From Cyclobacteriaceae bacterium (GTDB lineage Bacteria; Bacteroidota; Bacteroidia; Cytophagales; Cyclobacteriaceae), in NCBI GenBank assembly GCA_009885605.1, contig VFKK01000064.1, positions 1 to 48,569 of the forward strand: DNA of 48,569 nucleotides. Direction: 5' to 3'. How positions within the stretch are numbered: the stretch's first letter is position 1; every line of letters begins with the position of its first letter. The position numbers and the translations under genes were made by a program. Below, piece after piece: positions 2,586 to 46,164 of the stretch. Below the pieces are notes generated by a model. The model ran no database searches, was not told the origin of the DNA, and was given only the letters and a program-made list of their open reading frames with translations.

Positions 2586-2664
2586 AGACGAGGATTTTAA
2601 TTCTCGAATTTGCAAAAAAGGCAGATCACCTCAAGTAAGTTTTATGATACCGAATCTTAAAAAA

Positions 2665-2910
2665 TCAACTTGATACATCTCGGAAAGATGACTTTTTGTA
2701 ATTTTTATAAAGCCCAATTACTATCAAAATAATGGATGGCCAAAAAGTGAGACCTGCCATCATTCCAAAAATCACAGGATTTGGATTGGGGTCATCACCA
2801 AACCCAAGAGCCGCTAGACTAATAGTAACTATCAAAGGTCCGCTCCCAATTATTAAAAGAACTAATCCAACAATCAACAAGACATTCTTTTTAGTTTTAG
2901 GGTTCACCAT
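2665..2910 (-). CDS. Small two-TM membrane protein, function unknown
   Basis: Two hydrophobic helices around DDPNPNP; ATG at 2910 preferred over 2961. Confidence 0.7.
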   Translation of the reverse strand: MVNPKTKKNVLLIVGLVLLIIGSGPLIVTISLAALGFGDDPNPNPVIFGMMAGLTFWPSIILIVIGLYKNYKKSSFRDVSS

Positions 2911-3005
2911 GGTTAAATCGAAACAGGAAATCACGAAGTGTTGAATATTAAGGTAAAACAAAATATATCGGGGTAAAATAAAAAACGTATAAGCCCCTTA
3001 TTCTC

Positions 3006-3152
3006 TTAAAAAATAATCTGACACATCTCTTCCGGCTTCCTGACCTAAACCTATAGGATTTTGAATTTCTTCAGATCTAAGTTTTCACGGAATATTTAGA
3101 AACATTGATTTTTTTGGAACTCAGCTTGTGCCTTCAGCAATTTGGGGTTTTC
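3006..3152 (-). pseudogene. radA: Degenerate duplicate of the radA 3' end
   Basis: Direct repeat of 5578-5724. 63/74 identity over the first 74 nt, including 23 identical nt (3057-3079 = 5629-5651); CAG>TAG stop and small indels. Confidence 0.93.
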
Positions 3153-3169
3153 CAGTAAATGTGCTAGCG

Positions 3170-4111
3170 TTAGAGGCCTGTAGTTTTTCTTATATGCTTA
3201 ATCAAATTCCCCCGTTTTCCCCACGCAAGGAAAAAACGCAACTCTGAAGGATGAATGGCTAATTTTTTTAAAACCCAGTCCAAAGGATATCCGGCTAATC
3301 GTTTGATCAACAGTTTTGGATTAAAGAACAACTCCTGCTGCAGTTTTTTATGAGCGAAAATTGCAGCCATTTCATACATTTTCGCTTTAAAAAGACTGTC
3401 ATTCAGTTTATTGAAAAAAAATTCATGTTCAAAACTTGATTTCTTTTTATAGGAGTCTTTTCTTTCTCCGCTTAAGATCACCAAAACACCCGTACGGGTT
3501 GGGAAATGGAATTTGACACCTGAATTCCAGGCTCTGAAAAGCCATTCCTGTGACGGGGTAAAATAAAGGTCTTTCTCCATTTTCCACGGTCCGATTTGGT
3601 CCACAGTGCTCCTCTTGAAAAACCAGCAAGAAGCGACACTAAACACATTACTTGAAAAGTTTCCATTTGGATGAACACTCACCAGATGGGCCTCAAAATT
3701 TTCCTTAATGAGGTCTTCGTGTTTGACAGGCGGAATTTTTAGACCTGGGACTACCAGGAATTCTACCTTATTTATTTCCAGTTCAGAAATACAATTGGCG
3801 AGGTGTGAGGGAAAATACATATCATCCTGATTCAGGAAGGCAACGTATTGTCCCGTCGCCAGTGTTAATCCTACATTGTTGGGCTTGGCCTGTTGTCCGC
3901 TATTTTCTTCCAGATTGATAAACCTGATCCGGTCGTCCAGGAAGGAAGACACACACTCGGCAGTATCATCAGTGCAACAATCCCCAACCACGATTATTTC
4001 CCAATGTGAATAATCGGAATCCATCACACTCTGAATGGCAAATTTCAACAGATGGCTGCTGTTGTACGTGGCTATGATGATTGAAACCAGAGGATTTTCC
4101 AAGCGAATCAT
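3170..4111 (-). CDS. Glycosyltransferase family 2
   Basis: VSIIIATYN, EIIVVGDCCTDDT and YVAFLNQDD GT-A motifs. Confidence 0.9.
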   Translation of the reverse strand: MIRLENPLVSIIIATYNSSHLLKFAIQSVMDSDYSHWEIIVVGDCCTDDTAECVSSFLDDRIRFINLEENSGQQAKPNNVGLTLATGQYVAFLNQDDMYFPSHLANCISELEINKVEFLVVPGLKIPPVKHEDLIKENFEAHLVSVHPNGNFSSNVFSVASCWFFKRSTVDQIGPWKMEKDLYFTPSQEWLFRAWNSGVKFHFPTRTGVLVILSGERKDSYKKKSSFEHEFFFNKLNDSLFKAKMYEMAAIFAHKKLQQELFFNPKLLIKRLAGYPLDWVLKKLAIHPSELRFFLAWGKRGNLIKHIRKTTGL

Positions 4112-4112
4112 T

Positions 4113-5342
4113 TTAATCGATGCCTTCTAATCTATCGGCTACTTTCACCGCCAAATAGGGGATCAGGGTGTATTTACCCGTATTTACAGAATGGTAATTA
4201 GTGAAAGTTCTTATTCCTACTTCATGTCGCGTGTGGAGTTTACTTTCGTGTTTGTCCACATCTGTGTTGCCAAGGGCAAATATTACTCCGCCTACAGGAC
4301 TAACGTCTTCCGGACTGAATTTCAAATTATCCAAAGCAGGAATTCGGTTTGATAACTCCTTGAAGCTCCTCAAAAAAATGTCATCCCGTTCAGAATCAGA
4401 ATACATCTGATCCCATTCAGGCGGTCTGTCTTGTTCCGACCATCCCGTTCTTCCTATCGGGTACCAAGACATAAATGCCCCTTTTCCCTTGAAATTCACA
4501 GTGTCTCCAAAGGGACCCTGAACCATTGTGCAGGAAGGTAATTCATCCGATTTCAAGGGAATGAGGATCTTATTTCCAAATTTATATCGATGTGACCAGG
4601 AATTAATAGGCTCAATTCCCATGGTTCTGTCAATTTCAAGAAGTCCGTTCCAAGTAGAATTAACCACGTCCGTATACACTTCTTCCATTTTTATTTCTTC
4701 TCGGGTACTGCTGACTTTAAGTTTTGAGTCAATTTTCGAGACTGAATTAACTCTTGTATTGACCATCAAATTGATGGATGTAGTCGCCAGTAAGGCCGCT
4801 GTCAATTTTTCTGCGATGGTTCTGGGTTCTACGGAATATTCTGTCGTCGAGAAAACGTCATCGATATATTCAGGATTGACAATTCCATCAATCTTGGTTC
4901 GTGGCAGAAGCGAGGCATCGATAGTATCAAATAGGTCCAAGTACTTCTTTTTATAAAAAGTTTTGGCTTCGCCGTAGAAATCAATACACTTTTGGTAATG
5001 AGGCGCAAGTTCCTCGGCATTCATCAAGGATCCTTTATGAATGCAATAATTAAAAGGTGTTGAGATTACTTCTTCCGGATTTATCTCTACCCATCTTTTC
5101 AGGTTTGAAATGAAATGCAGTGCGCCGATAATCATTTCCCGGGAGGTGTGAAACTCCTTGTCCATCGCATAGATAAACCCCAGATGAATCTTTCCCTCAT
5201 TCACAAAACTGGCTTTTTTAATTGGCTCTGAGTGTTCTTCGTAGAGGTCTACTTGGTACCCGCGCTGCGAAAGTTCTAATGCCAGGCATGCTCCTAAACC
5301 GCCTGCTCCTAAGACGGCGATTTTACGGTTGATTTTATTCAA
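4113..5342 (-). CDS. FAD-dependent oxidoreductase (DAO/L-2-hydroxyglutarate oxidase-like)
   Basis: Rossmann IAVLGAGGLG...LYE, ASFVNEGKIHLG, C-terminal TGKYT; TTG start. Confidence 0.82.
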   Translation of the reverse strand: MNKINRKIAVLGAGGLGACLALELSQRGYQVDLYEEHSEPIKKASFVNEGKIHLGFIYAMDKEFHTSREMIIGALHFISNLKRWVEINPEEVISTPFNYCIHKGSLMNAEELAPHYQKCIDFYGEAKTFYKKKYLDLFDTIDASLLPRTKIDGIVNPEYIDDVFSTTEYSVEPRTIAEKLTAALLATTSINLMVNTRVNSVSKIDSKLKVSSTREEIKMEEVYTDVVNSTWNGLLEIDRTMGIEPINSWSHRYKFGNKILIPLKSDELPSCTMVQGPFGDTVNFKGKGAFMSWYPIGRTGWSEQDRPPEWDQMYSDSERDDIFLRSFKELSNRIPALDNLKFSPEDVSPVGGVIFALGNTDVDKHESKLHTRHEVGIRTFTNYHSVNTGKYTLIPYLAVKVADRLEGID

Positions 5343-5577
5343 ATTAGGAAGATTTAATTTTTTGAAGGAAAAGTAGCAATTAACTGGTAATAAGTAGGAA
5401 TTGGAAGCTTCCCAAAAATCTAAAAATTAGAGTAAGGCCTCAGCCGAAAACACATAATCCATTTGCTTGCAGGCTTTTGACTAATTAAAAAATATACTCT
5501 TCTTGATTCAAATAAAAATTTAATTAGCTTCTTCATTTAGGATTTTTAAGTCAGGAGAAAAATATTTTCAAATCTGA

Positions 5578-6951
5578 CTAGAAAATGATCTGATACATCT
5601 CTTCCAGCTTGCTGACCTGAACCACCACGATTTTGAATTTCTTCAGATCTAGGCCTTTGACGGCATATTTGGAGACGATGATTTTTTTGAAACCAAGCTT
5701 TTCGGCCTCGGCGATTCGGTTTTCGATTCTCGATACGGCGCGTATTTCTCCGCCAAGTCCAACTTCACCCGCAAAGCAAATCTGCTCCGAAACAGGAGTA
5801 TCCTCGTAGCTGGAAATCAGCGACGCACAAACCGCCAGATCCAATCCCGGATCATCTACGCGTAGTCCTCCAGCCACGTTCAGGAATACATCCTGCTGAC
5901 CAAGTCGCATTCCTCCACGCTTCTCCAAAACTGCCAATAGCATATTCAATCGCTTTGCATCGTGTCCGGTGCTGCTTCGCTGAGGTGTACCGTAAGTTGC
6001 CGGGCTCACGAGTGATTGGATCTCGATCAGAAGTGGTCTGTTTCCTTCCATCATGGCTCCGATCGCGACTCCGTTCAGTACTTCCTCTCGTTGCGTAAGC
6101 AAAATCTCAGAAGGATTTGCGACAGGACGAAGACCTTCGGCCCGCATCTCGTAGATTCCAAGTTCGTGGGTAGATCCGAAACGGTTTTTGGAAGTGCGTA
6201 GGATTCGGTACGTCAGATGTCTATCACCCTCAAACTGCAGAACGGTGTCCACCATATGCTCCAGGACTTTCGGGCCGGCGATCGAACCGTCCTTTGTAAT
6301 ATGGCCAATCAGGAAAACCGGAACGCCCGTTTCCTTGGCAAATTTCATGAGTTCGGCGGTGCATTCCCTGACCTGTGAGACAGATCCGGCCGCCGATTCC
6401 ACATATTGGCTATTCAGTGTCTGGATCGAATCGATGATCAAAAAATCAGGATTCAGGATTTCTATTTGTTGAAAAATCTGCTGGGTGTTGGTTTCGGAAA
6501 GCACATAGCAATCCTCATTTTTGGCGGACATCCTATCTGCCCGCATTTTGATTTGGGCTTCACTTTCCTCCCCCGATATGTAAAGAACCTTCTTTCCTCT
6601 AAGTGTCAAAGCAATCTGAAGCATGAGAGTAGATTTTCCGATTCCAGGTTCGCCTCCGATCAGAACCAGCGATCCCGGGACGATCCCTCCTCCCAAAACC
6701 CGGTCGAGTTCTGCATCTTTGGTTTCCCAGCGGGGTTGAAGATCATAGTTAACGTCTTGGATTTTTTGGGGTGTATTTGCTTTTTTGGTTGTGTTGGAAC
6801 TTGGCTTCCAGCTTCCTTTGCCTGAATCTTCCTTTTGAACGATTTCTTCCACATAGGTATTCCATTCTCCGCAGGAGGAACATTTGCCCAGCCATTTCGG
6901 GCTTTGTGCTCCGCAGTTTTGACAGAAAAAGGTGGTTTTTACTTTAGCCAT
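5578..6951 (-). CDS. radA: DNA repair protein RadA/Sms
   Basis: C4 zinc finger CQNC..CSSC, Walker A GEPGIGKST, KNRFG motif, Lon-like C-terminus. Confidence 0.98.
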   Translation of the reverse strand: MAKVKTTFFCQNCGAQSPKWLGKCSSCGEWNTYVEEIVQKEDSGKGSWKPSSNTTKKANTPQKIQDVNYDLQPRWETKDAELDRVLGGGIVPGSLVLIGGEPGIGKSTLMLQIALTLRGKKVLYISGEESEAQIKMRADRMSAKNEDCYVLSETNTQQIFQQIEILNPDFLIIDSIQTLNSQYVESAAGSVSQVRECTAELMKFAKETGVPVFLIGHITKDGSIAGPKVLEHMVDTVLQFEGDRHLTYRILRTSKNRFGSTHELGIYEMRAEGLRPVANPSEILLTQREEVLNGVAIGAMMEGNRPLLIEIQSLVSPATYGTPQRSSTGHDAKRLNMLLAVLEKRGGMRLGQQDVFLNVAGGLRVDDPGLDLAVCASLISSYEDTPVSEQICFAGEVGLGGEIRAVSRIENRIAEAEKLGFKKIIVSKYAVKGLDLKKFKIVVVQVSKLEEMYQIIF

Positions 6952-6955
6952 TCTT

Positions 6956-6987
6956 GAAATACGAGGGACAAATTACGAAATACGAGG
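6956..6987. promoter_or_regulatory. Direct repeat GAAATACGAGG x2 upstream of radA, candidate operator
   Basis: Identical 11-mers at 6956-6966 and 6977-6987 (21 bp period); the function is inferred. Confidence 0.4.
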
Positions 6988-7031
6988 AATAAGGATTTGG
7001 GAACCTCTTTCCCATTCCTCATTTTAAATTT

Positions 7032-9857: not shown

Positions 9858-10019
9858 TTTGGGGAATTCTTTACGAGTTCGAAAGCATTAAAACAGGACT
9901 TCTAAGTTACAATTTTTCCGGTAGGAGTTGGAGAAGTTTCAAACTCGAGTCTGATTTTGATAGAGTTTGGCGGTGATTTTGGTTATATTAATATACACAA
10001 CTTCAAAACCAATCATTCC

Positions 10020-10334
10020 ATGAAAAAGCTACTTACAATTCTGGCATTATTCCTCAGTGTTCAAATGCTAAATGCTGCTCCCATTGAAACAAAGGGAAAA
10101 AACAACGACAAAACCGAACTAACAGAAGCTCAGAAGGCTCGAGTAACTGAAATGGAAAATAGGTTGGAAGAAATTAAAGGAATGGATTTTCAGTCTATGA
10201 GTAAGGATGAGACGAAAGATGTAAGAGAGGAAATGAAAGAAATGAAAGCCGAGGCAAGAGATATCGGAAACGGTGTTTACCTTTCAGTAGGTGCACTTAT
10301 CTTAATTGTTCTCCTTTTGATTCTTCTTACCTAA
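10020..10334 (+). CDS. Small exported coiled-coil protein with hydrophobic C-terminal tail
   Basis: Signal peptide MKKLLTILALFLSVQMLNA, E/K-rich helix, GVYLSVGALILIVLLLILL tail; ATG at 10020 preferred over 9957. Confidence 0.8.
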   Translation: MKKLLTILALFLSVQMLNAAPIETKGKNNDKTELTEAQKARVTEMENRLEEIKGMDFQSMSKDETKDVREEMKEMKAEARDIGNGVYLSVGALILIVLLLILLT

Positions 10335-10351
10335 GACAGAAAGTTTAATTT

Positions 10352-10389
10352 AACAAGAAAGGCTCCAACTGGAGCCTTTCTTGTTTTTT
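10352..10389. terminator. Bidirectional intrinsic terminator
   Basis: AACAAGAAAGGCTCCA-AC-TGGAGCCTTTCTTGTT followed by a T tract, between convergent genes. Confidence 0.85.
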
Positions 10390-10423
10390 AACCATTTCAT
10401 TTTTTGAATCTCATCAATTTGGT

Positions 10424-10867
10424 TTACTTTTCCTCGGGTAGACTATCCAAATATCTTTTGACCTGAAGGCCTCTCAGAAATATAATCACCAAAGGAATCA
10501 GCCAAAGTGTTTCATTGAAAATCAAATGAAAGCCTGTTCGCTTATTCCATCCCAAGTCAGGGAGAAATCCCAATGCAAACCAGATTGTAAGAATGATTTT
10601 GCCGGTGATGCCGGCTATGATCATGTAAACCCAGCTTACGGGATAAAAAGCACTCACGAATATTACTAATCCAACCACTATTCCAAAACTGCCATAATAA
10701 GAAGCGGGTAGTCCTTCAATAGATCCGTTTCCGATTGTCAGCCAATTAAGCAGAGCTGGTCCAAACCATTTGTATAATGCAGACCAAGCAATAGTGTACA
10801 TGCCTGCGAGGAGTAGAAGACCTCTGAAATGCATTGGAAATATTGGAAATTCGGGTTTTTGATCCAT
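10424..10867 (-). CDS. Hypothetical four-TM membrane protein
   Basis: 147 aa ORF with four hydrophobic segments, ATG start. Confidence 0.75.
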   Translation of the reverse strand: MDQKPEFPIFPMHFRGLLLLAGMYTIAWSALYKWFGPALLNWLTIGNGSIEGLPASYYGSFGIVVGLVIFVSAFYPVSWVYMIIAGITGKIILTIWFALGFLPDLGWNKRTGFHLIFNETLWLIPLVIIFLRGLQVKRYLDSLPEEK

Positions 10868-12621: not shown

Positions 12622-12646
12622 AAACTGGGACCTGAAAAAATAAGCT

Positions 12647-14767: not shown

Positions 14768-14771
14768 GGTG

Positions 14772-21292: not shown

Positions 21293-21541
21293 ATGAATAC
21301 AGCGGAGAAAAAACTAGATCTCATCAGATGGCTTGCGGAATTGAATGATTCTGAAGTTTTGGAGCAATTAGATCAAATTAAAAAAAGATCCATAGTTGAG
21401 AGATATCAAAAAACACTTCAACCAATGTCGTCTGAAGAATTAAGAGAAAGTTTAGCTGAATCTGAAGAAGATTATCGGAATGGACGAATAATTTCTCAGG
21501 AAGAATTAGAGAGAAGGATTAAAGAAGGGCGAATTTTATGA
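21293..21541 (+). CDS. Putative type II antitoxin
   Basis: 82 aa acidic protein with an EEDYRNGRIISQEEL tail typical of ParE/RelE partners; ATGA overlap with the toxin. Confidence 0.75.
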   Translation: MNTAEKKLDLIRWLAELNDSEVLEQLDQIKKRSIVERYQKTLQPMSSEELRESLAESEEDYRNGRIISQEELERRIKEGRIL

Positions 21542-21843
21542 AAATCCAATGGTCTGAAAGAGCACTAAAAGATTTGGATCATGTTTTTCAATTTTATCTT
21601 GAGTTGGCTTCATTCGAGGTAGCTCAAAAAGTAACAGGCAAACTTGCCTCAAAAGTCAGAATTTTAGAATCCTATTCGGAATTAGGGGTAGTTGAAAAAT
21701 TTGATGTAATCCTGCCTTTTGAGTATAGATCATTGATTGAGGGAGATTTCAAAATTATATACAGATTTATTCTAGAGGATAAAATGATACTAATTGCCAG
21801 AATTTTCGACACAAGAAGAGATCCCAAAAAGAAAATTATTTAA
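21538..21843 (+). CDS. RelE/ParE family toxin
   Basis: MKIQWSERALKDL...YRSLIEGDFKIIYR...IARIFDTRRDP pattern. Confidence 0.9.
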   Translation: MKIQWSERALKDLDHVFQFYLELASFEVAQKVTGKLASKVRILESYSELGVVEKFDVILPFEYRSLIEGDFKIIYRFILEDKMILIARIFDTRRDPKKKII

Positions 21844-35903: not shown

Positions 35904-37268
35904 TTATGCTGCAGATCCTATATGCATCAACAGATACACGCCTGCTCCTGCGAAATATCCAAGTGCTGCCAATAAAGAGATCTTCCTCAGATACCATCCG
36001 AATTCGATTTTTTCCATACCCATTGCTGCCACACCTGCTGCTGAACCAATGATCAAAATACTTCCTCCTGTACCGGCACAATAAGCCAAATACTCCCAAA
36101 TGAAGTGATCCATTGGATAAACCTCAAGGCTATACATTCCCATACTTGCTGCTACCAACGGTACGTTGTCTACAATGGCAGAAAGTAAACCGATGAGTGT
36201 AATAATGATTCTGTTATCACCCAAACTGTCGTTGAGGTATGAAGCAAAATTAGCTAAGGTTCCCATAGACTGAAGAGAGCCTACCGCTAATAAAATGCCG
36301 AGGAAAAACAAGACACTTGGCATGTCAATTTTCGTAAGCGCATGGCCTGCGGAGTAATTCTTTCTCTCGGCTTCATCCAGGTCAGGGTTAATGAGTTCAG
36401 ATATAACCCAAAGAATACCCAAACCCAACAACATACCCAAATATGGAGGCAAGTGTGTGACGGTTTTGAAGATTGGAACCGAGATCAATGCTCCAATGCC
36501 GAGGATTAACATCAGGTTACCGGAAGTGATACTAGAGGCATCGGTTTTTTTATCTTCCTCGAATTCTCCCAACGTACCTTTCAAAGTAAACGTGAGGTAA
36601 ATCAAGGGAACCAGCACACAAACGATACTTGGAAGGAATACATTCTTCATGATTGCTGCAGCAGATATTTGTCCGCCAATCCAAAGCATGGTTGTTGTTA
36701 CGTCGCCAATTGGAGACCACGCACCACCCGCATTTGCCGCGATGATGATCATACCGGCGAAAAAAAGTCTCATCTCTTTATCAGGGATCAGTTTCCTGAT
36801 CAGTGAGACCATCACGATTGTGGTCGTCAGATTATCCAAAACAGAAGAAAGGAAGAAGGTTACGATACAAACTACCCAAAGCAGCATGATTGGGTTTTTC
36901 GTCTTGATTCGATCTGTAATAAATTTGAATCCCTGGTGCGCATCAACCAATTCGACAATTGTCATAGCTCCCATTAGGAAGAATAGGATTTGAGCAATCT
37001 CGTTCAAGTGATGTCCCAATGATTCTGAGACGTACTCCAAATGGATCTCCCCCGCACTTAAACTGGCCGCTTTTTCACCAAGTTCATGAACAAAATTAGT
37101 ATACCGGGTGCTATTCAAAAGGGTTTCCGGCGCATCTGAAACAGCGAAGAGAGTCCAACAAATAACAGCTGTCAACAAAGCTGATGCAGTCTTGTTGATT
37201 TTTATCGGATGTTCCAGGGCTATCGCCAGGTATCCGAGGACAAAGACTATAATGATTACAAACTCCAT
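35904..37268 (-). CDS. nhaD: Na+/H+ antiporter NhaD family, copy A
   Basis: FFLSSVLDNLTT, AANAGGAWSPIGDVTT, SAIVDNVP and GGSILIIGSAAGV. Confidence 0.92.
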   Translation of the reverse strand: MEFVIIIVFVLGYLAIALEHPIKINKTASALLTAVICWTLFAVSDAPETLLNSTRYTNFVHELGEKAASLSAGEIHLEYVSESLGHHLNEIAQILFFLMGAMTIVELVDAHQGFKFITDRIKTKNPIMLLWVVCIVTFFLSSVLDNLTTTIVMVSLIRKLIPDKEMRLFFAGMIIIAANAGGAWSPIGDVTTTMLWIGGQISAAAIMKNVFLPSIVCVLVPLIYLTFTLKGTLGEFEEDKKTDASSITSGNLMLILGIGALISVPIFKTVTHLPPYLGMLLGLGILWVISELINPDLDEAERKNYSAGHALTKIDMPSVLFFLGILLAVGSLQSMGTLANFASYLNDSLGDNRIIITLIGLLSAIVDNVPLVAASMGMYSLEVYPMDHFIWEYLAYCAGTGGSILIIGSAAGVAAMGMEKIEFGWYLRKISLLAALGYFAGAGVYLLMHIGSAA

Positions 37269-37456
37269 CTTTAATAGTTGTTTTTTGGTTGATTATTTAG
37301 GTTTGGGAAAAACTCGAATTCAAAATTTGATCGCGATTCTACCTTCTTTCTGATAATTTTCCTAACTAAACACCAAGATTTTAGAATCTATGTGTATTTC
37401 GAAAGAATGAATTTTTGGCTAAGAGATTTAGACTTTTAAGGAAAGGTTTTACCGAT

Positions 37457-37480
37457 ATTCTAAAGTATTCCCAAAACTTA
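37457..37480 (-). promoter_or_regulatory. Conserved block upstream of nhaD copy A (counterpart at 39558-39581), probable promoter
   Basis: ATTCTAAAGTATTnCCAAAACTTA is conserved in otherwise diverged leaders; the minus strand reads TACTTTAG, a variant of TAnnTTTG. Confidence 0.5.
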
Positions 37481-37496
37481 TTTTTGGACTAATAAT

Positions 37497-37760
37497 TTAC
37501 ATAAGCTGTGATAAAGCTATTTCATAGGAATTTTGGGCGAGTTTGGTTTTCCAGGGATTTACTTCAAAAGTCTTTTTCAGTTCATTTTTGATTGTGTTGC
37601 TGACACCCGAATATATCGATTGATCGGTATTTCCCCTTTTCCGCTCATCCAATGGGCAGATATGAGAGTCTTGCCTCCTTTGGTAATTAAATAAGGGATG
37701 AGGGAAACTCATTCATCCGTTTAGATTCCAATCGGCCCGAGACAATTTTGGAATTTGGAA
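37497..37760 (-). pseudogene. Degenerate duplicate of the Glu/Leu/Phe/Val dehydrogenase 3' end
   Basis: 51/54 identity to 39598-39651, with recognisable similarity out to ~39865; encodes TKLAQNSYEIALSQLM versus TKLAQNSYEIALAQLM. Confidence 0.93.
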
Positions 37761-37965
37761 AACAAAAAGGAGAAATTGGAGGGGATCCCGTCAAAGGAGT
37801 CAGATATTCTGGAAAAAGATTCTAAGAAGATTGATTCAAGTTCTAGGGAAATCTAATTTCTCTCCACCTCCAAGTGCCTGTCAGCGTCAATAGCTCTTTG
37901 GAAACCTATCTCGGAACCTGGAAGGGGTTTGTTTTTCAAGGGGTGATATTCCGAGGGAAAATAAA

Positions 37966-37998
37966 AAGAAAGAGGACCTGCTGTGGGGCCTCTTTCTT
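37966..37998 (-). terminator. Intrinsic terminator after nhaD copy B
   Basis: AAGAAAGAGG...CCTCTTTCTT stem with a T-rich tail on the minus strand. Confidence 0.7.
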
Positions 37999-38014
37999 GG
38001 GGAATAATTTTTTT

Positions 38015-39373
38015 TTAAATCTCTCCGTGCATGAATAAATAAACCAGCGCGCCACCTAGATAACCCATAAATGCCAGCAAAGAAATCTTTCTCAGGTACC
38101 AACCAAATTCGATCTTTTCCATTCCCATTGCGGCAACTCCGGCAGCTGAACCAATCACCAGGATACTTCCTCCGGTACCTGCACAATAAGCCAAATATTC
38201 CCAAATGAAATCATCCATTGGATACATTTCAAGGCTATACATGCCCATACTTGCAGCGACCAAAGGCACGTTGTCAACGATAGCTGAAAGAACACCGATC
38301 AGGGTAATGATGATTCTGTTATCACCAATGGAGTCATTCAGGTACGTTGCAAAATTGGATAGTGTCCCCATTGATTGAAGCGAGCCTACCGCCAGTAAAA
38401 TGCCGAGAAAGAACAATACGCTCGGCATGTCAATTTTTGTAAGTGCATGGCCTGCGGTGTAATTTTTCCTTTCATGTTCATCCATGTTAGGATTGATCAG
38501 TTCTGAAACGATCCAAAGAACTCCCAAACCTAACAACATACCCATATAGGGAGGCAAATGAGTGGTGGTTTTGAAGATTGGAACGGCGATCAAAACACCT
38601 ATGCCAAGGAGCAACATCAAGTTGCCGGTTAAAACTGCCGGTTTATAAGTTTTTGTGGATTCCTTAAAATCCCCCAAAGTACCTTTTAAGGTAAAACTCA
38701 AATAAAGCAACGGGATTAACATCGTGACTAAGCTTGGTAAAAACACATTCCTGATGATAGCTCCGGCAGATATCTGCCCCCCAATCCAAAGCATCGTAGT
38801 AGTCACATCACCGATTGGAGACCAGGCACCGCCTGCATTTGCAGCGATGATAATCATACCTGCAAAAAAAAGTCGCATCTCTTTATCAGGAATTAATTTC
38901 CTAATCAGAGAAACCATTACGATAGTAGTGGTAAGGTTATCCAGGACTGAAGAAAGGAAGAAAGCGACAATACACACAACCCACAACAGCATAATTGGGT
39001 TTTTCGTCTTGATTCTGTCCGTTATAAACTTAAACCCATGATGCGCATCAACCAATTCGACAATTGTCATCGCTCCCATCAGGAAGAAAAGAATCTGGGC
39101 AATTTCATCTAAATGATGCCCCAACGATTCTGAGACGTATTCCAGATGAATTTCTTCAGGACTTAAAGTACCTGCTTTTTCACCCAGTTCATGAAGGAAA
39201 TCGATATATCGGGTACTGTTTAAGAGAGTTTCTGGTGCATCCGAAACAGTGAAAATCGTCCAACAAATTACTGCTGTTACCAAAGCTGAGGCAGTCTTAT
39301 TTATTTTGATCGGATGTTCAAAGGCTATCGCCAGGTATCCGATTACAAAAACAATAATGATTATGAACTCCAT
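38015..39373 (-). CDS. nhaD: Na+/H+ antiporter NhaD family, copy B
   Basis: Same motifs as copy A; roughly 85% aa identity to it by manual count. Confidence 0.92.
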   Translation of the reverse strand: MEFIIIIVFVIGYLAIAFEHPIKINKTASALVTAVICWTIFTVSDAPETLLNSTRYIDFLHELGEKAGTLSPEEIHLEYVSESLGHHLDEIAQILFFLMGAMTIVELVDAHHGFKFITDRIKTKNPIMLLWVVCIVAFFLSSVLDNLTTTIVMVSLIRKLIPDKEMRLFFAGMIIIAANAGGAWSPIGDVTTTMLWIGGQISAGAIIRNVFLPSLVTMLIPLLYLSFTLKGTLGDFKESTKTYKPAVLTGNLMLLLGIGVLIAVPIFKTTTHLPPYMGMLLGLGVLWIVSELINPNMDEHERKNYTAGHALTKIDMPSVLFFLGILLAVGSLQSMGTLSNFATYLNDSIGDNRIIITLIGVLSAIVDNVPLVAASMGMYSLEMYPMDDFIWEYLAYCAGTGGSILVIGSAAGVAAMGMEKIEFGWYLRKISLLAFMGYLGGALVYLFMHGEI

Positions 39374-39597
39374 TTTAGAATAATTTTTGGCTTATTAATG
39401 TCAGTTTGACAAACCTCGATCCAAACTGAAATGTTGATTTGATCTTTGATCAGGTATTTTTCCAGGCCAAACATCAACCCTTAGTTTGTTCCAATTTTTA
39501 CGGAAGAGGGAATTTGGACTAACTGAACAAGACCTGAAACAGATCCTTGAACAGCAAATTCTAAAGTATTTCCAAAACTTATGGGGGGAACCATAAT

Positions 39598-40824
39598 TTA
39601 CATAAGCTGTGCTAAAGCTATTTCATAGGAATTTTGGGCCAGTTTAGTTTTGCCTTGATTTGATGCAAAAGTTTTCTCAAGGGCATTTTTAATTGTGATA
39701 CTTACATCCGAAAATATGGCCTGATCGGTAATCTCCACCATGTCGCTCATGAGATAGGCAAACACCCGGGCCATCCCACAGTTTGCGATGAAATCCGGAA
39801 TGACAGCTACTTGCTCATCCGCCCAAACTCCGATTGGCCCAACGAAAATTTCTGAATCGGCAAAAGGCACATTCGCTCCACAGGAGATCACTTCAAGTCC
39901 GGCTTTGACCATTCTCTCCGTCTGCTGCTGAGTGATAAGTCGTGAAGCCGCTGCTGGAATAAAGATCTCGGAAGGGATGTCCCAGATTTTGTCATTGATC
40001 TCTGCAAATGGAATCATATTCTCTGATACAAGTGTGTTCCCATCTCTTTTCAGGAATAAGTCCCGGATCTCATCCAAGTTGAATCCATCTTCCTTAATTA
40101 CTCCTCCATTTTTGTCGATAATCCCTACGATTTTCACTCCTTCCACTGAAAGGAAACAAGCTGCTGCCGCGCCAACATTTCCCCAACCTTGGATGATTGC
40201 ACGCTTACCTTTGATATCGCCTCCCCAGATTTTATAAAAATGAAGCACAGCTTCTGCGACTCCATAGCCGGTGATCATATCGGCGACCGTGTATTTTTTG
40301 GTACCATTTGGAGTAAAGTTGGGATCCTCAAGCACTTTGGATACGCCTTGGCGCAACTGGCCAATTTTTCTGATTTTTTGTGGCTCTGTGGCATGAAAAT
40401 GCCCGTTTACAACTCCTTCCTGCGGATGCCAAAGTCCGTATGATTCCGTGATTGGGATTACTTCATGGATTTCGTCGACATTCAGATCTCCGCCGGTACC
40501 ATAGTAACTTTTCAAAAGTGGCATGACTGCTTTGTACCATCTCTGAAGTACAGCTTCTTTTCGCGGATCATTGGGGTCAAAGTTGATTCCTGATTTTGCT
40601 CCTCCGATTGCAGGACCTGATACGGTGAATTTCACCTCCATCGTCTTGGCAAGGGATTCTACTTCGCGTTTGTCAAGACCTTTTCTCATCCTTGTGCCAC
40701 CGCCCGCAGCACCGCCTCTTAAGGAATTAATCACCACCCAGCCTTCTGCTTCAGATTCGCTGTCACTCCACTCGAAAATGATCTCCGGCTGTTTGTTTTC
40801 AAACTTTTTTAATAACTCTTGCAT
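39598..40824 (-). CDS. Glu/Leu/Phe/Val dehydrogenase family protein
   Basis: GGGTRM, GGAKSGI, TGYGV, QGWGNVG, CGAN and IPDFIANCG. Confidence 0.92.
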   Translation of the reverse strand: MQELLKKFENKQPEIIFEWSDSESEAEGWVVINSLRGGAAGGGTRMRKGLDKREVESLAKTMEVKFTVSGPAIGGAKSGINFDPNDPRKEAVLQRWYKAVMPLLKSYYGTGGDLNVDEIHEVIPITESYGLWHPQEGVVNGHFHATEPQKIRKIGQLRQGVSKVLEDPNFTPNGTKKYTVADMITGYGVAEAVLHFYKIWGGDIKGKRAIIQGWGNVGAAAACFLSVEGVKIVGIIDKNGGVIKEDGFNLDEIRDLFLKRDGNTLVSENMIPFAEINDKIWDIPSEIFIPAAASRLITQQQTERMVKAGLEVISCGANVPFADSEIFVGPIGVWADEQVAVIPDFIANCGMARVFAYLMSDMVEITDQAIFSDVSITIKNALEKTFASNQGKTKLAQNSYEIALAQLM

Positions 40825-40851
40825 GTATTTAGTTGGGTTTATTTCTCGGGC

Positions 40852-40859
40852 AAAAATAG
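40852..40859 (-). promoter_or_regulatory. Bacteroidota -7 promoter element for the dehydrogenase
   Basis: TATTTTTG on the minus strand, about 26 nt before the ATG at 40824. Confidence 0.5.
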
Positions 40860-40899
40860 AGAAATTAACCTCCCCGCCTAAATCAAACTCGGAAGTAGA

Positions 40900-41973
40900 T
40901 TATCCATAAACAGTTCCGCCACAAGAGTCTTGCCTCGCTCCTGTCACTGATGCCAATGAGTTATTTTCATTTCTCAATCTCAGAACGCCCAAAAAACCAA
41001 AAACCAAAGCTTCCTTAAACTCGATCAGTTCCGGTGAGGCAACGAATTGAGACCATTTTCCTTGAAGATGATGATTGAGGCGATCGAAAAAGTAGAAATT
41101 GTATGCACCGCCTCCTGTGATGAGAATCGATGGACTTCTGTTGGACTGATTTGACTTGATAACCTCAGATATTTGAAAAGCATAGTGCTCGATCAGCGTA
41201 CAGAGGATGTCTTTTTCAGCAAGTCCGGACTTCGGAATCAGGGGCAAAAATTCCTCTTCTATGTCTTCCCGGCCAAGAGATTTGGGGGCATTATTGGCAT
41301 AAAAAGGAAGCGAATTTAGCAGGCTGAACAGGGAAATGCTAACCGATCCTTCTTTTGCCCAGCTTCCTCCTTTGTCATAAGGCGCTCCAAGGACATTTGC
41401 CTGCTCATTAAGAAGTAAGTTAAAAGGACAACAATCAAATGCAATTCTTTTTCCATCTGAATCCATGCTGATGTTGGCGATGCCTCCCAGATTCACACAA
41501 AAGTCGATCTGAGGAAAAAGCAATTGGTCTCCGATCGGAACTAAAGGTGCGCCTTGTCCTCCCAATTGCACATCCAGCATCCTGAAATCATTGATGACTT
41601 TTAATCCGCATGCCTGGTGAAGCGCCCAGCCATTTCCGATTTGGATACTAAGAGCGTTATTCGGTTGATGGAAAACGGTATGACCGTGCGAGCAAACAGC
41701 AAAAGGAAAAATCTCATTTTCTTTGCAAAAGTCTTTGACTTTTTCTCCCATCCAACGACCAAAATCAACGTCCAGAATTGCCAGATCCAAAGCTGACAAC
41801 AGGTGAGAGTTCATCAGTTTTTCTCCTAAACCCTCCGGAAAAGGTATGGTCATGGAATGTAAAATCTCAAATGTCCAGTGGTCTTGCTTCTCGTAATGGC
41901 AATATGCCAAATCCAGACCATCGCCGGAGGTGCCGGACATGAGTCCGATCATTCTATAACTTGGGTTGCTCAT
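40900..41973 (-). CDS. anmK: Anhydro-N-acetylmuramic acid kinase
   Basis: IGLMSGTSGDGLD, SHGHTVFH, DFR..D...GGQGAPLVP, NLGGIAN, PKSLGRE and GGGAYN. Confidence 0.96.
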   Translation of the reverse strand: MSNPSYRMIGLMSGTSGDGLDLAYCHYEKQDHWTFEILHSMTIPFPEGLGEKLMNSHLLSALDLAILDVDFGRWMGEKVKDFCKENEIFPFAVCSHGHTVFHQPNNALSIQIGNGWALHQACGLKVINDFRMLDVQLGGQGAPLVPIGDQLLFPQIDFCVNLGGIANISMDSDGKRIAFDCCPFNLLLNEQANVLGAPYDKGGSWAKEGSVSISLFSLLNSLPFYANNAPKSLGREDIEEEFLPLIPKSGLAEKDILCTLIEHYAFQISEVIKSNQSNRSPSILITGGGAYNFYFFDRLNHHLQGKWSQFVASPELIEFKEALVFGFLGVLRLRNENNSLASVTGARQDSCGGTVYG

Positions 41974-42075
41974 GGGTTAAAGTATGTTAAGGATCTGTTA
42001 ATCAAAGATAAATTGATAGAGTTGAAAAGCCCCGTTTTTTTTAAATGTCTAATTTGCAATTCTAAAAAAACATTC

Positions 42076-42792
42076 ATGCCAAATCTGGTCATAGACATCG
42101 GAAATACACGAATCAAATCTGCCCTTTTCGAAAAGAAGGAAGTGGTATGGGAGGGTGTTTTTGAGGATTTACAAGAGGCGATCGCTATTTGGACCAATCA
42201 TCATTTCGGTCATTGTTTGGTTAGTTCGGTGCGATGGAGCAAGGAAGAACTGCAGAAGCTATTGCTTTTCGATTTCATTTTCCTGACTTATCAAACTCCA
42301 ATTCCGATTTCGAATTCTTACGGAAGTACGGTTACATTGGGCCAGGACAGGATTGCAGCAGCAATTGGGGGATGGCAATTAGCCGGCAAAGGTCCTGTTT
42401 TGGTCATAGACTTGGGAAGTTGTATTACCTTTGAGTTTGTAAATCAGGACAATGCATACCTGGGCGGAGCAATCAGCCCGGGTCTTGCCATGAGAGCAAA
42501 AGCAATGAATTCCCTCACAGCCCGGCTTCCTTTGGTCGAACTGAAGGAGAAACCAAAAAATCGGATCGGAGACAATACCATCACGTGCATGGAGATCGGA
42601 ATTTGGTATGGTGTTGAGTATGAATTAACAGGTCAAATTCAGGCTTATCAGAAAGAATATCCAGAAATCGTGGTCTTTGTTTGTGGTGGAGACGCTCAAT
42701 CTTTTGTTTCATTGGTAAAAGACCACATATTTGTAGTCCCAAATTTAGTCCTTCATGGACTTAATTGCATTCTAAACCATAATGTTGAGTAA
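42076..42792 (+). CDS. coaX: Type III pantothenate kinase
   Basis: IDIGNTRIK, LGQDR, IDLGSCIT and GGAISPG; ATG at 42076 (the track extension overlaps anmK). Confidence 0.95.
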   Translation: MPNLVIDIGNTRIKSALFEKKEVVWEGVFEDLQEAIAIWTNHHFGHCLVSSVRWSKEELQKLLLFDFIFLTYQTPIPISNSYGSTVTLGQDRIAAAIGGWQLAGKGPVLVIDLGSCITFEFVNQDNAYLGGAISPGLAMRAKAMNSLTARLPLVELKEKPKNRIGDNTITCMEIGIWYGVEYELTGQIQAYQKEYPEIVVFVCGGDAQSFVSLVKDHIFVVPNLVLHGLNCILNHNVE

Positions 42793-44065
42793 GATCAAAT
42801 TGAAATTGCTGGGTGTACTTTGCACCTTTTTCTTGTTTTCTGAGGCATTTGCCCAGTCCAGTTCGTCTACCTACAGTGCTTTGGGAATCGGTGAATTCAA
42901 TTATTCCGGACTTACCCAAAATCAGGGAATGGGCGGTCTTGGGATAAGTTTTGGCACAGGATGGAATGCCAATGTGGTCAATCCTGCCTTGACAACCCGA
43001 AATACGATTTTCAATTTTCAGGCTGCACTTAATTACAAAAAAATTAATGCTGACAACGGACAGCAAAATTCGGATGTGGATGGTGGAGGACTCTCGTACA
43101 TCGCATTTTCCCTACCGGTCAAATCTGGTAAGATTACAGCCGGAATGGGTTTGAACCAGATAACGAGTGTAAATTATCGACTAATCATCGCGAGTTTGGT
43201 TAATAATGCTGAACTGCAAGCTTTCAATTCAATCAAAGGAGACGGTGGTATTTCCGAAGCCTATTTGAATTTTGGTGTTCTGGCTGCAAAAAACCTGAGT
43301 TTTGGTGTTCAAGGCTCTTATTTGTTTGGTTCAACAATTCGAACAAATCGACTTTCGCTGTTTGATGACAATAGCAATTCTGTGGGAACTGTCTCTGAAT
43401 ATTATGAAAGATTAACGGTAAGTGATATCGGTTTGAAATTTGGAGCTCACTACTTTTTCAAGATTGGTGAGAAAAGCAACCTGCATTTAGGAGCCATTTA
43501 TCAGAATTTAGGAGATGTTAATGGAAAAGCTTTTGCTAAACTGGCTGCATTTGGCCAAGCTAGCGATCCCGATTCGGATGGAGATCTGATTGCCAACAAT
43601 GAAAAAGGAAGTGTTTATATCCCAAATCGATACGGATTTGGATTGTCATATGAAAAAATAAATAAATTTGTTGTCGGACTGGAAGGTCAGTATCAGGATT
43701 TCACCCAATACAGATCCTTTCTGGATGATCCACTTCAGTTAAAAGAAGTTATAAAAGTTGGTTTGGGTTTTCAGATTGTACCGGATTACTTGGCTATAGA
43801 TAGCCCCCTAAAACGCACTACGTATCGTTTTGGAGTGGAATATCAGCAGACACCCTATTACCTGAATCAAACCAACATTAATGACATTGGCATTAACTTT
43901 GGAACATCCTTTCCAGTAAACCAACTTTCGCTTGTGAATTTTGCAGTTAAAGTCGGACAAAGAGGAACCACGGAAAATGGGCTGATTAAAGAAAGTTATG
44001 TGAACTTCACCTTCGGGCTTTCACTTAATGACAATAGTTGGTTCTACAAAAGAGTATTTGAATAA
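42782..44065 (+). CDS. Outer-membrane beta-barrel protein (FadL-like)
   Basis: Signal peptide, SSTYSALGIG plug, GMGG, NPA motif, alternating beta strands and aromatic C-terminus. Confidence 0.8.
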   Translation: MLSKIKLKLLGVLCTFFLFSEAFAQSSSSTYSALGIGEFNYSGLTQNQGMGGLGISFGTGWNANVVNPALTTRNTIFNFQAALNYKKINADNGQQNSDVDGGGLSYIAFSLPVKSGKITAGMGLNQITSVNYRLIIASLVNNAELQAFNSIKGDGGISEAYLNFGVLAAKNLSFGVQGSYLFGSTIRTNRLSLFDDNSNSVGTVSEYYERLTVSDIGLKFGAHYFFKIGEKSNLHLGAIYQNLGDVNGKAFAKLAAFGQASDPDSDGDLIANNEKGSVYIPNRYGFGLSYEKINKFVVGLEGQYQDFTQYRSFLDDPLQLKEVIKVGLGFQIVPDYLAIDSPLKRTTYRFGVEYQQTPYYLNQTNINDIGINFGTSFPVNQLSLVNFAVKVGQRGTTENGLIKESYVNFTFGLSLNDNSWFYKRVFE

Positions 44066-44150
44066 AGCTAAACCATTACAGGAGATTGAGGTGAGCTAAT
44101 GGATGCTTCATCAAGATTGAATGTCACCGAATCAAACCAATTAAAAAGAC

Positions 44151-45452
44151 ATGAAAATTAAATCAACCCTTCTTACTCTCTCAGCTTTGCTCCTGGCTGG
44201 TATGGCTCAGGCTCAAGATGGATGGAAATGGCCTGCAGATGCTGCTCAGGAAGCGAAAGCTAGAGAGCTAAATGCGGCTTACACTGACTACATGAAGTCA
44301 GAACAATTTGTGGATGCTTCCAAGCCTCTTTATTGGTTATTGGTAAATACGCCTGAATTGAATGAGTCACTTTACATCAATGGTGTGACTATTTACAAAG
44401 GAGCCGCAGATGCCACTACTGATGCTGCGCAAAAAGCGGTTTATCAGGATTCGGTTATCACCATTTATTCAAAAAGAGGTGATCTTTATAAGAATGAAGC
44501 CAAATGGATTGAAAACAAAGCCTACTACGGCTACCAGTTTTATAAAGCAGATAAAGAAAAATTAAAGATACCAATTGTAGATTTTGAGAAAGCTCAGGAA
44601 TTGAATGGGGCGATCTCTCCAGGCTTGACAGCGGCTTATTTTGACTTGATCAGAAGGAATTACCTGATGAACAAGGCTTATCAACCTGAACAAGTATTGG
44701 CTATTTATGATAAAATCACTGCTCAGTTAGACAAAGCAGCGGCTGATGGCAAGGATGTAACCAGCCCTAAAGGCCAGGTTGAGCAGTTGCTGGTTGCTAT
44801 GGAATTGATTGATTGTGATTTCATCGAAAACACAATGGGACCAAAACTGGCTGCAGATCCTACTAATGAGGTTTTAGCCAACCAAATCTTCAAGTATTCT
44901 GTCCAGTACAAATGCTATTCTTCAAATTCATTCCTTGCAGCATTGGAGGTAATAGATACCAAGAACCCAACTTTCTCAACTTCTCAGGTAAGAGCCATGA
45001 GATATCTACAGGAAGGTGCCTATGATAAAGCTTTGCCGGTTTTGGAGAAAGCATTAACTCTTGCTGAAAATGACGCTCAGAAATCTGAAGTTCATTTGGA
45101 GTTGGCAAAAATCCATGGTAGCCAAGGCAGAAAGTCTCAGGCAAGAACTTCTGCAAGAGAAGCAGTTGCACTTGATGAGTCAAAAACCGGAGATGCATAT
45201 GCATTGATTGGTAATCTTTATATAAATTCTGCAAATGATTGCAGAGGTGGCGAGAGCCGTGCAAAAGACTACTCAATCTACATCGCTGCCTACAACGCTT
45301 ACCAAAGAGCCGGTGATTCCAAAGGAATGGCAAATGCTCGTGCAAGATTCCCATCCAAGGAAGAATTGTTTACAGAAGGTCTTGCGGTTGGTTCTTCCAT
45401 CAATACCGGATGTTGGGTAGGTGAGACTGTAACCCTTGCTACAAGAGATTAA
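44151..45452 (+). CDS. Exported TPR-containing protein
   Basis: Signal peptide ending AQA; helical TPR-like repeats in the C-terminal half. Confidence 0.8.
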   Translation: MKIKSTLLTLSALLLAGMAQAQDGWKWPADAAQEAKARELNAAYTDYMKSEQFVDASKPLYWLLVNTPELNESLYINGVTIYKGAADATTDAAQKAVYQDSVITIYSKRGDLYKNEAKWIENKAYYGYQFYKADKEKLKIPIVDFEKAQELNGAISPGLTAAYFDLIRRNYLMNKAYQPEQVLAIYDKITAQLDKAAADGKDVTSPKGQVEQLLVAMELIDCDFIENTMGPKLAADPTNEVLANQIFKYSVQYKCYSSNSFLAALEVIDTKNPTFSTSQVRAMRYLQEGAYDKALPVLEKALTLAENDAQKSEVHLELAKIHGSQGRKSQARTSAREAVALDESKTGDAYALIGNLYINSANDCRGGESRAKDYSIYIAAYNAYQRAGDSKGMANARARFPSKEELFTEGLAVGSSINTGCWVGETVTLATRD

Positions 45453-45463
45453 TAAATATTTTG

Positions 45464-45501
45464 AATGAATAAAGGCAGTCCCAGGACTGCCTTTATTCAT
45501 T
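45464..45501 (+). terminator. Long perfect hairpin, probable terminator
   Basis: 18 bp perfect inverted repeat AATGAATAAAGGCAGTCC-CA-GGACTGCCTTTATTCATT. Confidence 0.8.
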
Positions 45502-45525
45502 TATAGCCCTTCGATTAAAATCAAG

Positions 45526-45533
45526 TATCTTTG
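45526..45533 (+). promoter_or_regulatory. Bacteroidota -7 promoter element for lptC
   Basis: TATCTTTG, 4 nt before the GTG start. Confidence 0.55.
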
Positions 45534-45537
45534 AAAA

Positions 45538-46080
45538 GTGAATAAGGTTGCAGGATTCTTTTTTTTTATTTTCAGTTTAGCCGTTCTCTCTTGTAGGGAA
45601 GATGTGGATACCACCGCACTTAAAGTTTACGATGGCCCAGTAAATAGCGCCATAAATATTCATTTGGTTCATAGCGATTCAGCGGTGGTGAGATCAGAAA
45701 TAAGGGCTCCTAAGCAACTTGAATTTTCGAACGGCAACATCGAGTTTCCGGAAGGAATAGATATCCAAATTTTTGAAGTGGATGGGACGCTGAGTACAAC
45801 AATGACGGCAGACAAAGGATATTTTCTCAAAACAGAAAACATCTACAAGGGAATCGGGAACGTACAGGTTAAAAACTTATTGAAAGATCAGCGACTGCAG
45901 TCAGAAGAGTTGTATTGGAATCCCACCGATAAGAAAATTTACACCGAGACTTTTGTGACTATTCAGGAAAGACAAACTCTCTTTAATGGTACTGGCATGG
46001 AAGCCGATCAGAGTTTCAGCAAATACAAGCTTAAGAAAGTAAGAGATAGTCGAACCGTATTGCCAGGGGAAGGAATATGA
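45538..46080 (+). CDS. lptC: LPS export periplasmic protein LptC (Bacteroidota lipoprotein type)
   Basis: Lipobox VLSC, SDSA, EFPEGI, L.SEELYW and G.GMEADQ.F; context between coaX-OMP-TPR and the CNNM gene. Confidence 0.82.
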   Translation: MNKVAGFFFFIFSLAVLSCREDVDTTALKVYDGPVNSAINIHLVHSDSAVVRSEIRAPKQLEFSNGNIEFPEGIDIQIFEVDGTLSTTMTADKGYFLKTENIYKGIGNVQVKNLLKDQRLQSEELYWNPTDKKIYTETFVTIQERQTLFNGTGMEADQSFSKYKLKKVRDSRTVLPGEGI

Positions 46081-46164
46081 AAGGGATAACTCAGATGATT
46101 GTTTTGTTTGAGATAATCAGAGATAGAGAATTTTCTGTGGGAAAAGAAATCAAAATTAAATCCG

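What the first reader, a model, noticed from the sequence alone, without database searches (positions are those of the whole stretch)
2623..46150. Recurrent 3'-end echoes: candidate integrase-independent gene acquisition by tail replacement
Seen: many intergenic regions hold a decayed same-strand copy of the last codons of the gene upstream. Two are unambiguous (radA 3006-3152; dehydrogenase 37497-37760). About a dozen short candidates follow the 2665 ORF, radA (second copy), amidase, DUF1304, rsmF, M1 peptidase, hflX, epimerase, aroE, tag, nhaD-B, anmK, the OMP gene and lptC. In three cases genes lie between the live tail and the echo. No integrase or transposase is present and the targets are unrelated genes. 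Established: Campbell-type integration and homology-facilitated illegitimate recombination can both leave a displaced gene tail. Inference: incoming DNA carrying a homologous tail plus downstream cargo repeatedly replaces host 3' ends. The old tail then decays in place, and many spacers are such fossils. The short matches are weak individually; the signal is their consistent position and strand.
Basis: partly seen in the sequence, partly recalled or inferred. Interest (0 to 1): 0.85.

Follow-up and report, generated by a model that had tools for sequence, protein, structure and literature searches.

The report
Duplicated gene tails flanking swappable genes
In this Algoriphagus genome a few genes are followed, one or two genes later, by a spare copy of their own last 100-270 bases; this known scar of enzyme-free insertion likely lets the enclosed genes swap between related species by ordinary recombination, but most of the short echoes claimed are chance.

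Summary
Partly confirmed. The radA echo (3006-3152, 117/144) and dehydrogenase echo (37497-37762, 191/266) are real. So are a tag echo (37759-37916) and a second, 25-nt radA echo (2657-2681). Of the 12 other short candidates, 11 score as chance and one is borderline; genome-wide, own tails match downstream spacers no better than controls (92 of 1815 at p<=0.05). The dehydrogenase and tag echoes abut: they are the two ends of one tandem nhaD duplication, not two cargo captures. Genome-wide there are 5 events (6 echoes), all 3' tails, with no integrase and no shared site. Relatives show empty sites, four independent radA junctions (one holding a restriction-modification pair) and two recent between-species transfers that start at the live tail and stop at the echo. 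This is 'insertion with long target duplication' (Furuta 2010), here with non-RM cargo. The repeat likely serves afterwards as a recombination arm. Cargo comes from close kin, not distant donors, and which side came in is often unclear. 'Many spacers are fossils' is refuted. The scan noted this pattern before in other genomes.

The parts
5578..6951 (-). radA, live gene; its last ~147 nt are the duplicated target
   Evidence: TIGR00416 608.6 bits
4113..5342 (-). cargo 1: FAD-dependent oxidoreductase
   Evidence: PF01266; absent at the empty site of G010
3170..4111 (-). cargo 2: family 2 glycosyltransferase
   Evidence: PF00535
3006..3152 (-). radA echo 1 (codons ~-147 to stop), frameshifted; same junction in G002 and G113
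   Evidence: 117/144
2665..2910 (-). small membrane ORF between echo 1 and echo 2 (longest frame starts at 2961); a homologue follows radA directly in G006
   Evidence: no Pfam match
2657..2681 (-). radA echo 2, last 8 codons, of the type found in another clade (G092), overlapping the stop of the small ORF
2586..2656 (-). G092-type radA-DMT spacer carried with echo 2
   Evidence: 97 of 115 columns match over tail, spacer and DMT start
2217..2585 (-). DMT (DUF486) gene, the usual neighbour of radA at empty sites; body groups with own clade
   Evidence: PF04342
35242..35811 (+). tag (methyladenine glycosylase); last ~173 nt form the left end of the duplicated unit
   Evidence: PF03352
35904..37268 (-). 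nhaD-like antiporter copy A
   Evidence: NF038006; 78.7% DNA identity to copy B
37497..37762 (-). gdh echo (last 268 nt)
   Evidence: 191/266
37759..37762 (.). tandem-duplication junction; tag and gdh share the 6-mer GCAAAA at the two breakpoints (5 of 6 kept at the join)
37759..37916 (+). tag echo
   Evidence: 102/157
38015..39373 (-). nhaD-like antiporter copy B
39598..40824 (-). Glu/Leu/Phe/Val dehydrogenase, live gene; last 268 nt form the right end of the duplicated unit
   Evidence: PF00208, PF02812

Best explanation
Each long echo is one arm of a 100-270 bp direct repeat around one or two genes, likely made by a single illegitimate join when two alleles of a variable locus were fused, and likely kept in play afterwards as a homology arm for ordinary recombination between related species. 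Shown: the repeats, their 3'-tail bias, empty sites in kin, variable start points with no shared motif, no recombinase gene, and two transfer tracts bounded by live tail and echo. Inferred step 1: DNA from a relative pairs by homology at one end and joins by microhomology at the other, 100-270 nt before a stop codon; only joins that leave the gene whole survive, hence tails. Inferred step 2: live tail and echo can loop the cargo out (empty allele), put it into an empty allele, or swap it between species whose downstream genes differ, and each crossover renews the 3' part of the echo while its 5' edge decays. The nhaD pair is the same kind of join in which the enclosed gene was already present, that is, a tandem duplication. 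The route of DNA entry (transformation) is untested.
For: Top 5 of 8790 gene-versus-nearby-non-coding comparisons are all tail/downstream/same strand with genes between. Four radA junctions with four different cargos start near -146, -148, -153/-161 and -258/-262; nine start sites share no motif by eye. trmB: G000 versus G091 identity is 0.91-0.99 from the tail across the kinase to the echo, against 0.62-0.89 for G113 over the kinase, and the genes behind the echo differ. g1636: G000 versus G002 is 0.87-0.90 in the gene, 0.92-0.99 across spacer and cargo, 0.73-0.91 after the echo. One radA junction is joined to three different downstream regions in G000, G002 and G113. Silent/non-silent differences: G109 16/2 (P 5e-6), G113 5/0, trmB G113 4/0, G002 3' half 7/0. 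G091 has one nhaD between tag and gdh. ComEC present in 5 of 5 genomes.
Against: The window's own echoes do not show the silent-site signal (radA 12/13, P 0.12; gdh 30/44, P 0.21), nor do trmB G000 (1/6), trmB G010 (8/20) or g1636 G002 (5/5): 8 of 15 pairs reach P<0.05 and the pairs are kin, not independent. No recent transfer tract for the window's radA cargo (0.79-0.84 among four kin). Echoes sharing private alleles with their own live tail can also come from gene conversion inside one chromosome. Tract ends are resolved only to 150 nt. An integrase sits just behind radA in G015, G024 and G137. ComEC is near-universal (10 of 14 controls) and does not show competence.
Confidence: 0.62

Rival explanations
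1. Strict tail replacement: in every case the live tail and cargo came in together (for example as a circle, by one crossover) and the echo is the resident tail decaying in place.
For: Fits lineage-specific cargos at radA in G023 (RM pair), G109 and G137 and g1636 (cargo in 2 of 5, empty in 3). Post-echo DNA matches empty sites. gdh echo keeps ancestral residues lost from the live gene.
Against: g1767 cargo is in 5 of 6 kin and the radA cargo in 5 of 6, so the echo side may be the newcomer. Echo 2 plus its spacer is the foreign-type piece. Echoes are renewed, not simply decaying. No tail-versus-body difference in identity for the window's radA (0.92/0.90/0.89 against 0.90/0.90/0.87).
Confidence: 0.2
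2. Remnants of integrase-driven islands: an integrase inserted elements near the 3' end (as phage 21/e14 do in icd, recalled), then the integrase was lost or acts in trans.
For: Three of four radA junctions start within about 15 nt of each other. An integron-like tyrosine recombinase follows radA in three relatives.
Against: That integrase lies outside the repeats in G137. Five unrelated targets with no shared motif. The fourth radA junction is 110 nt away. One PF00589 match in the own assembly, unlinked.
Confidence: 0.1
3. Purely internal events: tandem duplication followed by partial deletion, with gene conversion keeping the repeats alike, and no horizontal step.
For: Explains nhaD fully. 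Cargo trees follow the host clade. Some echoes look like identical copies that then decayed (trmB G000).
Against: Cannot give the between-species identity tracts at trmB and g1636, the RM pair found at radA in only 1 of 39 loci, or the foreign-type echo 2.
Confidence: 0.08

Closest known systems
Insertion with long target duplication (Furuta, Abe, Kobayashi 2010, PMC2853133; read: passages, sections 15 and 18)
   Same: Insert under 20 kb between long, variable direct repeats, no mobility gene, empty site in a relative; the paper notes that repeats often span a start or stop codon and so leave the gene intact, mostly in competent species. Relative G023 (HindVP-type endonuclease plus C5 methylase behind radA, 148-nt repeat) is a direct case.
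   Different: Window cargo is not restriction-modification, so self-inflicted DNA cleavage cannot be the driver. Here one gene is hit four times with different cargo, and transfer tracts between species end at the repeat; the sections I read state there was no evidence for release or re-infection.
E. coli H47 genomic island (PMC5426353; read: passages)
   Same: No recombinase, imperfect direct repeats of 148 and 144 bp, excision and re-integration through several identity blocks.
   Different: 13-kb microcin island shown to move without RecA; RecA dependence is untested here.
Homology-facilitated illegitimate recombination and sequential displacement (PMC5361080, PMC2884548; read: passages; the primary paper PMC122325 was not held)
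   Same: One homologous anchor plus one illegitimate join; displaced 3' ends pushed downstream.
   Different: Described for toxin-immunity and rhs arrays or as replacement of host DNA; here housekeeping targets and a duplicated anchor.
Transformation-triggered tandem duplication (PMC3784515; read: abstract)
   Same: Offers a route to tandem duplication by unequal crossing-over, as at nhaD.
   Different: Uses pre-existing IS repeats and gives 100-900 kb duplications; here 2.1 kb with a 6-bp microhomology.
Integrase-free HGT hotspots (PMC5635113; read: abstract); minimal mobile elements (recalled)
   Same: Cargo turnover by recombination in flanking core genes; the radA-DMT interval behaves this way across the genus.
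   Different: Those need homology on both flanks and leave no echo; most cargo-bearing radA loci here are of that echo-free kind (9 of 12).
Prophage e14/phage 21 in icd leaving icdC (recalled, not checked)
   Same: A displaced 3' gene fragment behind the insert.
   Different: Needs an integrase and one fixed crossover.

Membership tests
Insertion with long target duplication | Direct repeat longer than 30 bp, unique to the site | tested here: met
   147 nt at radA; 97-136 nt at three other loci
Insertion with long target duplication | Insert under 20 kb | tested here: met
   1.1-2.5 kb
Insertion with long target duplication | No mobility gene in the insert | tested here: met
   Pfam on the cargo genes; PF00589 search; three cargo proteins have no Pfam match
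Insertion with long target duplication | Empty site with one copy of the repeat in a relative | tested here: met
   G010 (radA), G107/G002 (trmB), G113/G091/G010 (g1636), G002 (g1767)
Insertion with long target duplication | Restriction and modification genes in the insert (the paper's search criterion) | tested here: not met
   Not in the window or at the other own-genome loci; met in relative G023
Integrase-driven island or prophage | Integrase gene between the repeats | tested here: not met
   the integrase of G137 lies outside
Integrase-driven island or prophage | One fixed crossover site or shared core | tested here: not met
   Start points -146 to about -260 at radA; no motif seen among nine starts, by eye only
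Homology-facilitated illegitimate recombination | Microhomology at the illegitimate join | tested here: inconclusive
   6-mer at the nhaD join; donor side unknown at the other joins
Homology-facilitated illegitimate recombination | RecA-dependent anchor in a competent host | not testable with these tools
   Only ComEC presence shown
Tandem duplication (nhaD) | Head-to-tail repeat of gene and both flanks, single-copy relative, copies nested in the host clade | tested here: met
   All five segments align at 64-79%; G091 single copy; tree
H47-type recombinase-free island | Detectable excised circle, RecA-independent | not testable with these tools
   Needs PCR or reads from a culture

The most novel reading that the evidence does not exclude
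A duplicated gene tail turns any small gene block into a self-renewing, enzyme-free cassette: the echo is a portable right-hand homology arm that lets the block enter any relative carrying the target gene, whatever lies downstream, and is renewed from a working tail at each transfer. This would be a general, selectable route of gene spread between species rather than a passive scar, and would supply the missing 'release and re-infection' step proposed for long-target-duplication inserts.
Probability: 0.3. Interest if true: 0.6.

Novelty: new variant of a known kind. Interest (0 to 1): 0.34.

Why it matters
It shows how small accessory genes can be gained, lost and swapped between related species without any mobile-element enzyme, and it gives a marker (a 100-270 nt tail echo) for such events that integrase-based island finders miss. 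The effect is small in this genome, about 2 events per megabase, and the scar itself is in print. The added value is comparative evidence that the repeat is reused as a recombination boundary. The broad claim that spacers are built from dead gene tails is not supported.

Tried and rejected
Bulk echo signal: none at 150 nt/3 kb or 45 nt/next spacer at six offsets (the one raised cell, 76 of 1168 at -135..-90, has mean Z 0.02). g135 (Z 8.1) rejected: it lies in a duplicated neighbour pair. Two head hits (g936, g2542) look like uncalled 5' ends of tandem paralogues; not counted. Masking bias against head echoes checked by an unmasked scan: none among 110 local repeats; G113 has one short head repeat without cargo. 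Five events all at tails is modest evidence alone. Distant donor for cargo or nhaD-B: not found (nhaD matched only 4 of 28 further genomes). Hidden short echoes before DMT in cargo-bearing genomes: only the 3 with known echoes, of 15. Sulfatase or DMT body from G092: rejected. The six-genome clade tree is unresolved, so gains and losses could not be ordered. Assembly artefact: rejected, the same junction is in a single-contig relative. Literature: nine searches; none returned, by title or abstract start, a report of this in Algoriphagus or at radA; subscription papers and Furuta's supplements were not seen and may hold such cases. Genes were called with my own hexamer caller, which shortens some starts.
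Full report
Setting. The window is contig C101 of a 2.9-Mb, 349-contig assembly, 75% complete. Its RadA is 88-93% identical to named Algoriphagus records and 78-86% to other named Cyclobacteriaceae genera, so I treat it as Algoriphagus. I called 2731 genes with my own hexamer model and compared DNA by local alignment against random-tail controls.

The observation. Self-alignment of the window gives two strong direct repeats: 3007-3127 with 5579-5700, and 35967-37762 with 38072-39865. These hold the radA echo (117/144) and the dehydrogenase echo (191/266); a tag echo (102/157) lies at 37759-37916. A 25-nt second radA echo at 2657-2681 is too short to stand alone (p 0.0013, found after the fact), but it and the 71 nt behind it match the radA end and radA-DMT spacer of relative G092 (score 201 against 27-61 in 14 others). 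Of the remaining 12 named candidates, 11 are at chance level and the 2665 ORF is borderline.

Own tails score like controls in bulk: 92 of 1815 at p<=0.05, opposite strand 103, heads 92; 64 of 1168 for the last 45 nt against the next spacer, 58 expected. So spacers are not generally tail fossils. The extreme end is different. Of 8790 comparisons of whole genes with non-coding DNA within 8 kb in four orientations, the five best are all 3' tail, downstream, same strand, with genes between: gdh, radA, trmB, an unknown gene g1636 and tag; g1767 (PhyH) is seventh. That is five events in 2.9 Mb, a lower bound given the short contigs. An 800-kb sample of G113 gave 1 strong case in 598 genes, and 400 kb of a genome from another family 1 moderate case in 284. 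The feature is rare and not special to this genome.

The nhaD locus is a tandem duplication. The gdh echo and tag echo overlap by four bases. The unit tag tail, spacer, nhaD, spacer, gdh tail is repeated head to tail, each part 64-79% identical, and the two breakpoints share GCAAAA. G091 has one nhaD between tag and gdh; G113 and G010 have two; contigs of G107 and G002 break inside. The B copies form one clade (100/99) inside the host clade. Fourfold sites of A and B differ at 0.57, against 0.38-0.49 for radA orthologues of the clade, so the event is a little older than the clade's split. The window's gdh echo is less decayed (non-silent difference 0.22) than those of G113 and G010 (0.33, 0.37) and is closer to G113's live tail (0.78) than to its own (0.72). 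I infer that it was renewed by recombination with a relative's working tail.

The radA locus. A search with the last 67 residues found a second nearby match in 5 of 111 relatives that had the tail, and missed the window's own echo, so this is a minimum. Among 39 loci read as DNA, chosen partly for those matches, 6 have a long echo, with four different cargos: oxidoreductase plus glycosyltransferase (G000, G002, G113; start -146), a HindVP-type endonuclease plus methylase (G023; -148), a channel-domain gene (G137; about -155) and three unknown frames (G109; about -260). G010 has radA directly before DMT, and its spacer matches what follows the echo in G002 from the first base. The same junction is followed by three different regions in G000, G002 and G113. 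Against a simple story, the window's cargo sits behind radA without an echo in 9 of 12 genomes, is present in 5 of 6 close kin, and its tree follows the host clade. It is not shown that the window's live radA tail is foreign.

Transfer bounded by tail and echo. At trmB, a sensor kinase lies between tail and echo in G000, G113, G091 and G010; G107, G002 and G078 are empty; five distant genomes have the kinase without echo (18 loci read). The G000 echo ends like the empty site of G107. G000 and G091 are 0.91-0.99 identical from the tail across the kinase to the echo, where G113 is 0.62-0.89, and their genes behind the echo differ. At g1636, G000 and G002 carry cargo and echo with the same odd 5' edge, three kin are empty, and identity is 0.87-0.90 in the gene, 0.92-0.99 across the insert and 0.73-0.91 after the echo. 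These two tracts are the best evidence that the repeat is reused as a recombination boundary. In both loci the core of each echo follows its own genome's live tail, which needs either crossover inside the echo or later gene conversion; I cannot separate the two.

Silent-site test. If the echo were a copy decaying neutrally, about a third of echo-live differences would be silent. 8 of 15 pairs exceed that at P<0.05 (G109 16 silent to 2 non-silent; G113 5 to 0), and 7 do not, among them both window echoes. So some echoes were working tails until recently and others are old or were identical at birth. The pairs are kin.

Mechanism. Shown: repeats, empty sites, variable starts without a motif, no linked recombinase, two transfer tracts. 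Inferred: one homology-anchored illegitimate join fuses two alleles of a variable locus; selection keeps joins that leave the gene whole; the repeat then supports excision, insertion and exchange by ordinary recombination. Which side came in differs by locus. Tail plus cargo fits G023, G109, G137 and g1636. Echo plus downstream DNA fits the second radA echo and perhaps g1767, where cargo is in 5 of 6 kin. ComEC is present but competence is untested.

Comparison with known work. Earlier scan notes (unchecked) describe the same pattern in other genomes and pointed me to Furuta 2010. That paper defines insertion with long target duplication and remarks that repeats often span start or stop codons. 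The window meets every criterion except restriction-modification cargo; G023 meets all. The H47 island has 148/144-bp imperfect repeats and no recombinase. Displacement of 3' ends by homology-facilitated illegitimate recombination is proposed for effector arrays, and integrase-free hotspots with recombining flanks are common. I found no report of this in Algoriphagus or at radA in nine searches, judged from listings only.

Verdict. A real but rare and known kind of scar, extended to non-RM cargo, with new comparative evidence for reuse across species. The sweeping part of the finding is refuted. Interest 0.34.

Noticed in passing
L008, L010, L022:4685-5842 (directly behind radA or its echo in G015, G024, G137): An integron-like tyrosine recombinase (PF00589 plus PF13495; below the integron integrase cut-off) followed by a run of small same-strand ORFs, one repeated; may be an integron-like array at radA in one clade.
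   Followed up: partly
L026 (G102:C6), L027 (G117:C40): A decayed radA tail sits far from radA, beside a 645-aa gene that follows radA or its echo in G060 and G109: a tail-plus-neighbour fragment inserted at another place.
   Followed up: partly
L049 +166..218 and L050 +145..212 behind trmB (G132, G095): A 55-70 nt internal piece of trmB is repeated 150-200 nt behind the stop, with no cargo between.
   Followed up: no
L021:1635-3145 (G109): Cargo behind radA is two overlapping frames (215 and 229 aa, perhaps one split gene) and a 68-aa frame, none with a Pfam match; its echo is still an open frame.
   Followed up: partly
G113:C1 about 2074383-2077500 (L108): A helix-turn-helix-like gene has a 92-nt tail echo between two similar opposite-strand genes that begin like TIR-domain proteins (label recalled); looks like another tandem unit.
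   Followed up: no
G000 contig C303:15961-31336: A dense family of repeated surface-protein genes sharing C-terminal segments, about 45 of the 110 local repeats.
   Followed up: no
L043:1265-1330 and 1490-1530: Short spacer motifs behind g1767 recur at several places in each of five relatives: a small dispersed repeat.
   Followed up: no
window 21293-21843: An 82-aa and a 101-aa overlapping pair resembling an antitoxin and RelE/ParE toxin in a low-GC stretch (label from recall).
   Followed up: no
window 430-2220: The sulfatase behind DMT was not seen in the loci of the closest kin but is there in six more distant genomes at 66-71% identity: another variable gene of the radA hotspot.
   Followed up: partly
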